Source: a virus (taxonomy: Duplodnaviria > Heunggongvirae > Uroviricota > Caudoviricetes). Taken from it: a DNA stretch of 64,000 bases. Position 1 is the stretch's first letter; every line of letters starts with the position of its first letter. Under the pieces are notes generated by a model. The model ran no database searches. It was not told where the DNA came from and saw only the letters and a program-made list of their open reading frames with translations. Positions 12,944 to 13,252 of the stretch are shown piece by piece. The position numbers and the translations under genes were made by a program. The stretch is from IMG/VR virus record IMGVR_UViG_2875713109_000001; one strand, given 5' to 3'.

Positions 12944-13252
12944 TCAATATACGATCTGGTCTGCATGATCACCAAAATCATCGTCGTCGTCCTCATCGCC
13001 ACCATCTACTGCTGGCCAATCAACAAACCAGCCAGCGTAAAGATGCAGCGTTCGGAGAACATCACTTGCGGGAGCATCAAGGGTGTTAACGAATCCCATA
13101 TAGCTATTGGGATTTGCCCCAGCTATGGCTTCAGCGATCATGTCCTCGGTAATGTCACCGGAGATAATGCTTAAACGCCCGGAAACTTCTTCATTATCAT
13201 CAAATTCGATAATGGCATCTCCGCCTAATGGCGCTGCGATTTTAATCTGCAT
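12944..13252 (-). CDS. small highly acidic protein, last gene of the dar operon
   Basis: 102 aa, C-terminal GGDEDDDDDFGD; ATG overlaps the ddrB-like stop (AATGCAGATTAA), implying translational coupling. Confidence 0.5.
   Translation of the reverse strand: MQIKIAAPLGGDAIIEFDDNEEVSGRLSIISGDITEDMIAEAIAGANPNSYMGFVNTLDAPASDVLRTLHLYAGWFVDWPAVDGGDEDDDDDFGDHADQIVY

What the first reader, a model, noticed from the sequence alone, without database searches (positions are those of the whole stretch)
12944..13252. Highly acidic small protein translationally coupled to the end of the dar operon
A 102-aa protein with a poly-Asp tail (GGDEDDDDDFGD) starts inside the stop region of the DdrB-like gene and ends at the bidirectional terminator. 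Strongly acidic small phage proteins are often DNA mimics (Ocr/ArdA-like) or chaperones; in an anti-restriction operon a DNA-mimic role is plausible.
Basis: inference. Interest (0 to 1): 0.4.

Follow-up and report, generated by a model that had tools for sequence, protein, structure and literature searches.

The report
Phage P1 hxr: acidic DdrB-coupled protein
This small, very acidic protein is the already catalogued but never studied phage P1 gene hxr; it is not the repressor it is labelled as, nothing shows it is a DNA mimic, and it most likely works with the neighbouring DdrB protein.

Summary
The ORF is real and as described: 12944-13252 (-), 102 aa, net charge -20. Its ATG overlaps the ddrB stop by 11 nt and a hairpin terminator follows. 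It is phage P1 gene hxr (3 aa differences), the last cistron of the late darA operon.

The database label "Xre homologue/possible repressor" finds no support. There is no HTH profile hit in 22 family members, and the predicted fold is a mixed alpha/beta core plus a disordered acidic tail.

Nothing supports membership of Ocr or ArdA either: no profile hit, and no fold match in PDB or BFVD. The operon is late, Dar is reported to act only in cis, and Hxr is absent from the published virion proteome.

The family is confined to P1-like phage-plasmids of Enterobacterales. In 86 of 86 scored loci (about ten lineages), a DdrB with the C-terminal HExxH (zincin-like) module is followed by an overlapping small acidic ORF. 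Five lineages that lack that module have none. The 3' part of ddrB and hxr also recombine as one block.

Best reading (inferred, confidence about 0.4): Hxr is a dedicated partner, either chaperone or regulator, of DdrB's C-terminal peptidase module. A free-standing DNA mimic or anti-defence role remains possible (about 0.2). This is a known gene of modest interest.

The parts
12944..13252 (-). hxr CDS (102 aa plus stop), 97% identical to phage P1 Hxr (YP_006490.1)
   Evidence: PHROG 2292 at E 1.2e-58
13013..13252 (-). Residues 1-80: conserved globular core, predicted beta-beta-beta-alpha-loop-alpha-beta, containing the invariant VLR...GW.V.WP motif
   Evidence: alignment A4; AlphaFold2 block pLDDT 82-90 except the 20-30 loop
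12947..13012 (-). Residues 81-102: disordered acidic tail (net -10) with a poly-Asp run, ending in a hydrophobic tip (QIVY). Tail length (21-25 aa), acidity and a terminal hydrophobic-V/I-N/Y/H are conserved in most members; the sequence is not.
   Evidence: poly-Asp length polymorphism
13260..13265 (-). AAGGAG Shine-Dalgarno for hxr, embedded in the last codons of ddrB
   Evidence: sequence; SD-like sequences at the same place in other lineages
13242..13252 (-). 11-nt overlap between the hxr start and the ddrB stop (ATGCAGATTAA). The same -11 geometry is kept down to 29% identity; other lineages overlap by 4-20 nt.
12918..12941 (.). Hairpin terminator shared by the convergent hxr and yjjJ transcripts
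   Evidence: flagged on the - strand; sequence
13242..16229 (-). ddrB (995 aa): N-terminal DdrB-type ParB domain, a variable middle, and a C-terminal HExxH module
   Evidence: Iyer et al. 2017 (PMC5512222)
13602..13616 (-). HELGH (DdrB residues 872-876), a zincin-type motif conserved in all long DdrB lineages and followed by a conserved (A/S)TE(V/I) motif
19912..19930 (-). Late promoter LPdar (-22 box AAGTTACTT, -10 TACCAT), identical to P1. It heads the operon lydA-lydB-hdf-darA-ddrA-ddrB-hxr.
   Evidence: P1 annotation; sequence identity
16242..19883 (-). Upstream cistrons of the same operon: lydA 19554-19883, lydB 19114-19557, hdf 18525-19136, darA 16604-18523, ddrA 16242-16607
   Evidence: ORF list; P1 annotation

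Best explanation
Hxr is the terminal, translationally coupled cistron of the phage P1 late darA operon. It acts as a dedicated partner of the C-terminal, zincin-like (HExxH) module of DdrB.

Proposed mechanism (inferred): Hxr is made together with DdrB late in infection. Its folded ~80-aa core docks on the fast-evolving C-terminal part of DdrB. Its flexible acidic tail, with its hydrophobic C-terminal tip, occupies the only basic region of DdrB, the peptidase segment. In this way it would chaperone or gate DdrB's proteolytic maturation (109 kDa to about 76 kDa) before the N-terminal fragment is packaged. Hxr and the cleaved C-terminal piece would then stay behind in the producer cell.

Shown here: gene identity, operon position, coupling, conservation, and the co-occurrence and co-inheritance with the DdrB C-terminal module.

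Inferred: physical binding, and whether the effect is inhibition, activation or folding help.
For: (1) Identity and operon. The protein is 97% identical to P1 Hxr. LPdar is identical and the terminator directly follows hxr.

(2) Coupling is conserved far beyond sequence. The same 11-nt start/stop overlap is seen at 29-60% identity in Rosenbergiella, Citrobacter and metagenomic P1-likes. It persists where a hicB-like gene has been inserted between ddrA and ddrB (L007).

(3) Presence tracks the DdrB C-terminal module. All 83 scored HExxH-bearing ddrB genes, plus L101-L103, have an overlapping 90-184-aa ORF with net charge -10 to -30. Five of these lineages (L009, L011, L101, L102, L103) have C-terminal halves unrelated in sequence apart from the HExxH segment. 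Their small ORFs are collinear remote matches to the Hxr profile (hhalign E 9e-5, probability 59%).

(4) DdrBs lacking the module have no such ORF. These are the Vibrio-type 614-621 aa ParB+InPase proteins L010 and L016, and also L015, L017 and L018. Their ParB domains are still 52-60% identical to the window's.

(5) Mosaicism. In L005, DdrB is 96-100% identical up to about residue 850, then falls to 56-90% over the last 150 aa, and Hxr is 62% identical. In L087/89/90 the N-terminal 450 aa are 74-98% identical per 50-aa bin, the C-terminal half is mostly 12-54%, and Hxr is 48%. So the 3' part of ddrB and hxr are inherited as one block.

(6) The HExxH segment is the only consistently net-positive 100-aa stretch of an otherwise acidic DdrB.

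(7) DdrB is reported to be processed to about 76 kDa before packaging (Iyer 2017). Hxr is not in the virion proteome, whereas DdrB, DdrA, DarA, Hdf, DarB and Ulx are.
Against: No physical or genetic evidence of an Hxr-DdrB interaction exists, and I could not run a complex prediction. Adjacency and co-inheritance are also what simple physical linkage inside one phage lineage would give, and the loci are phylogenetically non-independent (about ten lineages, not 86 events). No DdrB-Hxr fusion (Rosetta stone) was found. The peptidase assignment of the DdrB C-terminus rests on the conserved HExxH/TE motifs and on Iyer et al.; Pfam and PDB sequence searches of that segment found nothing. A DdrB that is 95% identical overall co-exists with a 62%-identical, duplicated Hxr (L005), so tight co-adaptation is not required over most of DdrB. 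CRISPRi knock-down of hxr has no plating phenotype, which is uninformative about mechanism.
Confidence: 0.4

Rival explanations
1. Hxr is a free-standing acidic effector: a DNA mimic or other anti-defence or host-takeover protein. It would bind a host DNA-binding protein (a type I R-M enzyme, BREX, a nucleoid protein or an Abi sensor) independently of DdrB.
For: The protein is extremely acidic, and the acidity is conserved across the family (net -11 to -22). It sits in an anti-restriction operon, at the border of a variable cargo slot. It evolves fast, varies in poly-Asp length and has a tandem duplication (L005), all typical of arms-race genes. It has no known fold, like many anti-defence proteins.
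Against: No Ocr or ArdA profile hit was found in 22 members. There is no fold match to any solved DNA mimic. The core's charge is weakly conserved (-3 to -10), and the conserved acidity lies in a disordered tail. The gene is transcribed from a late promoter, with no sigma-70-like site found inside ddrB. It was not detected in virions. Dar+ phage do not rescue co-infecting Dar- phage, so there is no diffusible anti-type-I activity at entry. Its presence depends on the DdrB C-terminal module.
Confidence: 0.2
2. Hxr is a general assembly or packaging helper of the Dar cargo. For example, it could be an acidic counter-ion or escort that keeps DNA-binding Dar proteins soluble and off DNA until they enter the procapsid. 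It might itself be a minor internal head protein that mass spectrometry missed.
For: It belongs to the same late operon as the packaged Dar proteins. Dar proteins are incorporated in an ordered way. Hxr yields only one convenient tryptic peptide (cuts at K4, R26 and R67 give 4-, 22-, 41- and 35-mers), while the virion study required two unique peptides. Its absence from the proteome is therefore weak evidence.
Against: Vibrio-type P1-like elements keep DarA, Hdf-like and ParB-type DdrB proteins but have no Hxr. A general Dar escort would therefore be dispensable there. No N-terminal capsid-targeting or processing signal is evident.
Confidence: 0.15
3. Hxr is an Xre-type transcriptional repressor, as the P1 record and many derived annotations state.
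Against: No HTH_3, HTH_19 or HTH_31 hit, nor any other HTH, was found in any of 22 members at E up to 10. NCBIfam gives none. The predicted fold starts with three beta-strands and has only two helices. A net charge of -20 is incompatible with DNA binding. RefSeq now calls it a hypothetical protein.
Confidence: 0.02

Closest known systems
Phage P1 Hxr (P1_gp021, YP_006490.1; PHROG 2292)
   Same: Same gene: 99 of 102 residues identical, the same 11-nt overlap with ddrB, and the same operon and terminator position.
   Different: Three substitutions (D56N, V81A, V97A). Downstream, the window carries yjjJ instead of P1's IS1 and isaB. No function has ever been shown for Hxr, and its 'Xre homologue' label is not supported here.
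T7 Ocr and ArdA (DNA-mimic inhibitors of type I R-M)
   Same: Small, very acidic phage or plasmid proteins linked to anti-restriction.
   Different: There is no sequence or fold relationship. Ocr and ArdA display their charges on rigid helical dimers, are made first or early, and act in trans. Hxr has an alpha/beta core with a disordered acidic tail, is encoded in a late operon, and belongs to a system reported to act only in cis.
Small acidic partner proteins encoded just downstream of, and co-translated with, the enzyme they control (colicin DNase immunity proteins Im7/Im9, barstar, serralysin inhibitor Inh). This comparison is from general knowledge.
   Same: Gene order, translational coupling, a size of about 85-110 aa, acidity, fast co-divergence with the partner's module, and strict co-occurrence with that module.
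   Different: No homology or fold similarity was detected. Binding and inhibition are untested. The putative partner is a domain of a polyvalent virion protein, not a secreted toxin or protease.
Acidic C-terminal tails with a hydrophobic tip (E. coli SSB ...DDDIPF, T7 gp2.5 ...DDF). This comparison is from general knowledge.
   Same: A disordered Asp/Glu-rich tail ending in conserved hydrophobic residues, with composition rather than sequence conserved.
   Different: Hxr has no OB fold and no ssDNA-binding features. The role of its tail is not known.

Membership tests
P1 Hxr / PHROG 2292 | Full-length sequence match to the family profile and to P1 Hxr | tested here: met
   PHROG 2292 at E 1.2e-58 over 1-102; 3 differences from YP_006490.1
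P1 Hxr / PHROG 2292 | Position directly after ddrB, overlapping its stop, as the last gene of the darA operon | tested here: met
Ocr (PF08684) / ArdA (PF07275) DNA mimics | Profile or sequence similarity to the family | tested here: not met
   No Pfam hit for the window protein. Neither family appears among hits of 22 members at E up to 10. The PDB sequence search gave nothing relevant.
Ocr (PF08684) / ArdA (PF07275) DNA mimics | Rigid, elongated, mostly helical fold displaying a B-DNA-like array of carboxylates | tested here: not met
Ocr (PF08684) / ArdA (PF07275) DNA mimics | Early expression or delivery, with trans-acting inhibition of type I R-M | tested here: inconclusive
   Late promoter LPdar and no internal sigma-70-like site. 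Not in the virion proteome. Dar is reported to be cis-acting. No direct assay of Hxr exists.
Xre / HTH_3 repressors | Helix-turn-helix domain (PF01381 or relatives) | tested here: not met
   predicted secondary structure
Xre / HTH_3 repressors | A DNA-binding (basic) surface | tested here: not met
   Net charge is -20, with only 3 K/R.
P1 Dar anti-restriction system (virion-internal proteins) | Encoded in the dar operons | tested here: met
P1 Dar anti-restriction system (virion-internal proteins) | Incorporated into the phage head | tested here: inconclusive
   Not listed in the LC-MS/MS virion proteome. However, Hxr has few tryptic sites and the study used a two-peptide cutoff.
P1 Dar anti-restriction system (virion-internal proteins) | Loss changes the efficiency of plating on restricting hosts | not testable with these tools
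   Only non-essentiality is reported (PMC10695390). Piya et al. 2017 could not be read.
Enzyme-plus-cognate small acidic partner modules (immunity/inhibitor/chaperone type) | Conserved adjacency, translational coupling and strict co-occurrence with the partner's domain | tested here: met
   86 of 86 HExxH-bearing ddrB genes against 0 of 5 lineages lacking the module; mosaic co-inheritance
Enzyme-plus-cognate small acidic partner modules (immunity/inhibitor/chaperone type) | Direct binding to, and modulation of, the partner | not testable with these tools
This needs a multimer prediction or a pull-down.

The most novel reading that the evidence does not exclude
Hxr-like proteins would be a previously unrecognised family, with no detectable known fold, of dedicated regulators (inhibitor, activator or chaperone) of the zincin-like peptidase module of polyvalent DdrB proteins. 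Through a docking core and an acidic plug-like tail, they would control when the Dar anti-restriction cargo is cleaved and loaded into P1-type capsids.
Probability: 0.3. Interest if true: 0.5.

Novelty: already known. Interest (0 to 1): 0.3.

Why it matters
P1 is a model phage and a workhorse of transduction and phagemid delivery, and its Dar system is the classic virion-borne anti-restriction device. How the polyvalent DdrB protein is processed and packaged is still unknown. Hxr is conserved wherever DdrB carries its peptidase-like end, yet it has been carried in databases for twenty years under a misleading 'repressor' label and left out of Dar studies. Correcting the label is useful in itself. 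If Hxr does gate DdrB maturation, it would supply a missing piece of Dar assembly and an example of how phages control the self-processing of polyvalent proteins. If it turns out to be a free-standing anti-defence protein, it would be a new fold of that class. Either outcome can be tested with simple P1 genetics.

Tried and rejected
- **Xre homology:** rejected.
- **Sequence relatives with solved structures:** none. The best PDB hits were E 0.2-0.7 (CD109, RapA), which I treat as chance.
- **First AF2 run:** with a shallow 6-sequence alignment it gave pLDDT 58.6. It was superseded by the 22-sequence run, which gave pLDDT 76.2.
- **Exhaustive HMMER search:** the four long hits (P0020 and P0026-28, with FG-GAP/VCBS-like 'GDVTGDGVAEIVTGAGPGG' repeats) are compositional or repeat matches to 'SGDITEDMIAEAIAGANPNS', not relatives.
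- **Immunity protein for the DdrB ParB-like (putative DNase) domain:** rejected, because Vibrio-type DdrBs keep that domain at 58-60% identity without any Hxr.
- **The search for related loci with the Hxr alignment:** failed, as no block was conserved enough.
- **Genome-contig scan:** gave only 7 loci.
- **Viral-contig scan:** dominated by near-identical P1 types.
- **DdrB C-terminal 252 aa:** Pfam and PDB sequence searches found nothing. The peptidase call therefore rests on motifs and on the literature.
- **Papers not held:** Piya 2017 and Lobocka 2004. hxr is not in the knockout supplement of Gonzales 2022.
- **Literature on Hxr function:** none. Only two papers mention the name, both in gene tables.

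Full report
**1. Observation**

The ORF exists exactly as described. It spans window 12944-13252 on the minus strand and encodes 102 aa plus a TGA stop. The product has 17 Asp and 6 Glu against 1 Lys and 2 Arg, giving net charge -20 and a computed pI of about 4.05. It contains GGDEDDDDDFGD at residues 84-95.

The ATG lies inside the last codons of the upstream gene (AATGCAGATTAA), an 11-nt overlap. An AAGGAG Shine-Dalgarno lies 7 nt upstream of the ATG. The upstream 995-aa gene is a true DdrB (PF18763 ddrB-ParB, E 3e-39).

Two bases after the stop there is a 10-bp hairpin (12918-12941) followed by a T-rich tract on the minus strand. The convergent plus-strand gene ends at 12912, so the same hairpin closes both transcripts. 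The scan scored it as terminator-like only on the minus strand.

**2. Identity**

The region is 98-99% identical to phage P1 and its relatives. The ORF is P1 gene hxr (P1_gp021, YP_006490.1), with three substitutions: D56N, V81A and V97A.

In P1 the operon reads LPdar-lydA-lydB-hdf-darA-ddrA-ddrB-hxr, and no promoter is annotated inside it. The LPdar sequence is identical in the window at 19912-19930 (-). A consensus scan finds no sigma-70-like site on the minus strand within ddrB. So hxr is the last cistron of a late operon.

The window itself comes from a P1-like phage-plasmid of E. coli. Between isaA and hxr it carries yjjJ (a HipA-family kinase) instead of P1's IS1 and isaB.

**3. What the protein is not**

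The P1 record calls Hxr a 'possible repressor; homolog of Xre' on the strength of 28% identity over about 58 residues. Many phage records copy this label. I found no support for it:
- Pfam and NCBIfam give no hit for the window protein.
- None of 22 diverse family members hits any HTH family at E up to 10.
- The predicted structure begins with three beta-strands.
- A net charge of -20 is not that of a DNA-binding protein.
- RefSeq now annotates it as hypothetical.

There is equally no evidence of membership in the Ocr or ArdA families:
- No profile hit.
- No PDB sequence relative.
- No fold relative, using a reasonably confident model built from a 22-sequence alignment. That model has mean pLDDT 76, 82-90 over most of the first 80 residues, and five concordant models.

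**4. Anatomy of the family**

A word-indexed search found only P1-like proteins. An exhaustive HMMER scan of 1.84 billion representatives, followed by a profile search, widened this to about 25 clusters down to 29% identity. All are on ~80-95 kb contigs of Enterobacterales: Escherichia, Salmonella, Klebsiella, Citrobacter, Cronobacter, Enterobacter and Rosenbergiella. Among 50,697 phage records, only 20 carry it, all P1-like.

The alignment (A4) shows two parts:
- A 75-80-aa core with invariant G53, V65, L66, R67, W75, W79 and P80 (motif VLR(S/T)L...GW.V.WP).
- A 21-25-aa tail whose sequence varies but which is always acidic (net -7 to -14) and in most members ends in hydrophobic-V/I-N/Y/H.

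Whole-protein net charge is -11 to -22, but the core alone ranges from only -3 to -10. AlphaFold predicts the tail to be disordered (pLDDT below 50 for residues 84-100). Among near-identical P1-type phages the poly-Asp run varies in length, giving proteins of 101-106 aa.

The conserved acidic feature is therefore a flexible tail, not a structured DNA-shaped charge array.

**5. Comparative genomics: the main new result**

In every divergent orthologue examined, the gene sits directly after ddrB with the same 11-nt overlap, while the DNA downstream is variable cargo. Examples are a RelE/MqsA-like pair, an Arc-like gene, a porin, a CHAP-domain gene, and yjjJ here. The coupling persists in L007, where a hicB-like gene has been inserted between ddrA and ddrB.

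DdrB itself is bipartite. The N-terminal ~450 aa (ParB-type domain and adjoining region) are conserved. The C-terminal ~550 aa diverge strongly, except for a terminal segment carrying WHE(L/V/I)GHH and a downstream (A/S)TE motif. Iyer et al. assign this segment to the zincin-like 'MPTase' of polyvalent proteins and propose that it self-processes DdrB to the ~76-kDa packaged form (PMC5512222).

I scored all loci fetched:
- **With the HExxH segment:** 83 of 83 ddrB genes, plus three further lineages from Edwardsiella, Plesiomonas and a metagenome, are followed by an overlapping small ORF. The overlap is 4-20 nt, the length 90-184 aa, and the net charge -10 to -30.
- **Five of these lineages** (L009, L011, L101, L102, L103) have small ORFs with no BLAST-level similarity to Hxr. 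As a profile, however, they align collinearly with the Hxr profile (hhalign E 9e-5, probability 59%). They share the ...G-aromatic-x-(V/I)-x-WP-like element followed by an acidic tail.
- **Without the HExxH segment:** Vibrio-type 614-621-aa ParB+InPase proteins L010 and L016, and L015, L017 and L018, have no acidic downstream ORF. Their ParB domains are still 52-60% identical to the window's.

Mosaic genomes point the same way:
- In L005, DdrB is 96-100% identical to the window's up to about residue 850. It then falls to 56-90% over the last 150 aa, and the Hxr gene is 62% identical and tandemly duplicated.
- In L087/89/90, the N-terminal 450 aa are 74-98% identical per 50-aa bin, the C-terminal half is mostly 12-54%, and Hxr is 48% identical.

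So the 3' part of ddrB and hxr behave as one heritable module. DdrB is acidic overall (net -24), and its only consistently net-positive 100-aa stretch is the one holding HExxH.

**6. Mechanism**

The best-supported reading is that Hxr is a dedicated partner of DdrB's C-terminal peptidase-like module and is made in step with it by translational coupling. I propose that the core docks on the fast-evolving C-terminal region and the acidic, hydrophobic-tipped tail engages the basic HExxH segment. This would chaperone or gate the cleavage that precedes packaging of the N-terminal DdrB fragment.

This fits Hxr's absence from the virion proteome, in which DdrB, DdrA, DarA, Hdf, DarB and Ulx were all found (PMC9024508). 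That absence is weak evidence, though. Trypsin would give only one convenient Hxr peptide, and the study required two.

Binding and its consequence are inference, and I put this reading at about 0.4. The same data rule out one alternative I considered, an immunity-like inhibitor of the ParB-type putative nuclease domain. That domain occurs without Hxr in the Vibrio-type elements.

**7. Rivals**

- **Free-standing DNA mimic or anti-defence effector (about 0.2).** In favour are the conserved acidity, fast evolution, duplication, location and orphan fold. Against are the late promoter, the lack of virion detection, and the classical finding that Dar protects only in cis: Dar+ phage do not rescue co-infecting Dar- phage (review PMC12707154). 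Also against are the disordered nature of the conserved charge and the dependence on DdrB's C-terminal module.
- **General Dar packaging escort or minor head protein (about 0.15).** This remains possible.
- **Xre-type repressor (about 0.02).** This is effectively excluded.

hxr is non-essential for plaque formation by CRISPRi (PMC10695390). I found no paper that tests its function.

**8. Verdict**

The database function is wrong or at least unsupported. The comparative data point to a DdrB-linked role.

Interest is modest at 0.3. This is a catalogued gene in a well-known operon, with a testable and mildly novel functional hypothesis and a useful annotation correction.

Noticed in passing
window 11548-12912 (+); RefSeq-style start at 11608: A YjjJ-type HTH-HipA-family kinase gene (NCBIfam NF007297, E 1.5e-159) occupies the slot where P1 has IS1 and isaB. 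The identical cargo is found in about 30 E. coli P1-like plasmids.
   Followed up: partly
window ~11420-12943; loci L002 8457-9147, L003 8375-8659, L005 9015-10127, L007 8359-8850: The DNA just downstream of hxr is a variable cargo hot spot in P1-like elements. It holds a RelE/MqsA-like TA pair, an Arc-like gene, a porin, a CHAP-domain gene, IS1+isaB in P1, ompD in a Klebsiella plasmid (PMC5786510), and yjjJ here.
   Followed up: partly
window ~12971-12997 (-), Hxr residues 86-94; viral loci L019-L098: The poly-Asp run of Hxr varies in length among otherwise near-identical P1-type phages (proteins of 101-106 aa, net -19 to -23). This suggests repeat slippage in a tail that tolerates length changes.
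   Followed up: partly
L005 8001-8555: A tandemly duplicated Hxr (184 aa, two diverged copies, net -30) lies downstream of a DdrB that is 95% identical to the window's.
   Followed up: partly
window 13242-16229 (-); junction near DdrB residue ~450 (about window 14880): DdrB is sharply bipartite: a conserved N-terminal ~450 aa and a fast-diverging, recombining C-terminal ~550 aa. In L087/89/90 the N-terminal half is 74-98% identical per 50-aa bin and the C-terminal half mostly 12-54%. This implies a recombination junction in mid-gene.
   Followed up: partly
L010 4001-5845, L016, L015: Vibrio-type P1-like elements encode a short DdrB (614-621 aa) in which an inorganic-pyrophosphatase-like domain (PF18823) replaces the whole C-terminal half. 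There is no HExxH and no Hxr.
   Followed up: partly
L007 3985-4425: A HicB-like antitoxin gene is inserted on the opposite strand between ddrA and ddrB in one P1-like element, splitting the dar operon but leaving the ddrB-hxr overlap intact.
   Followed up: no
window 15307-15675 (+): An antisense ORF inside ddrB corresponds to the annotated P1 iddB (function unknown). I did not check whether it is conserved beyond what the ddrB coding constraint would impose.
   Followed up: no
viral loci scored (locus ids not recorded): A few P1-type loci carry a disrupted ddrB. One has a 517-aa product followed by a 478-aa ORF that ends like DdrB, apparently a frameshift split. Another has a 464-aa product. 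I did not check whether hxr is retained downstream in these loci.
   Followed up: no
proteins P0020 and P0026-P0028: FG-GAP/VCBS-like repeat proteins score against Hxr residues 23-49 (SGDITEDMIAEAIAGANPNS against GDVTGDGVAEIVTGAGPGG). I judged this a compositional or repeat artefact rather than homology.
   Followed up: partly
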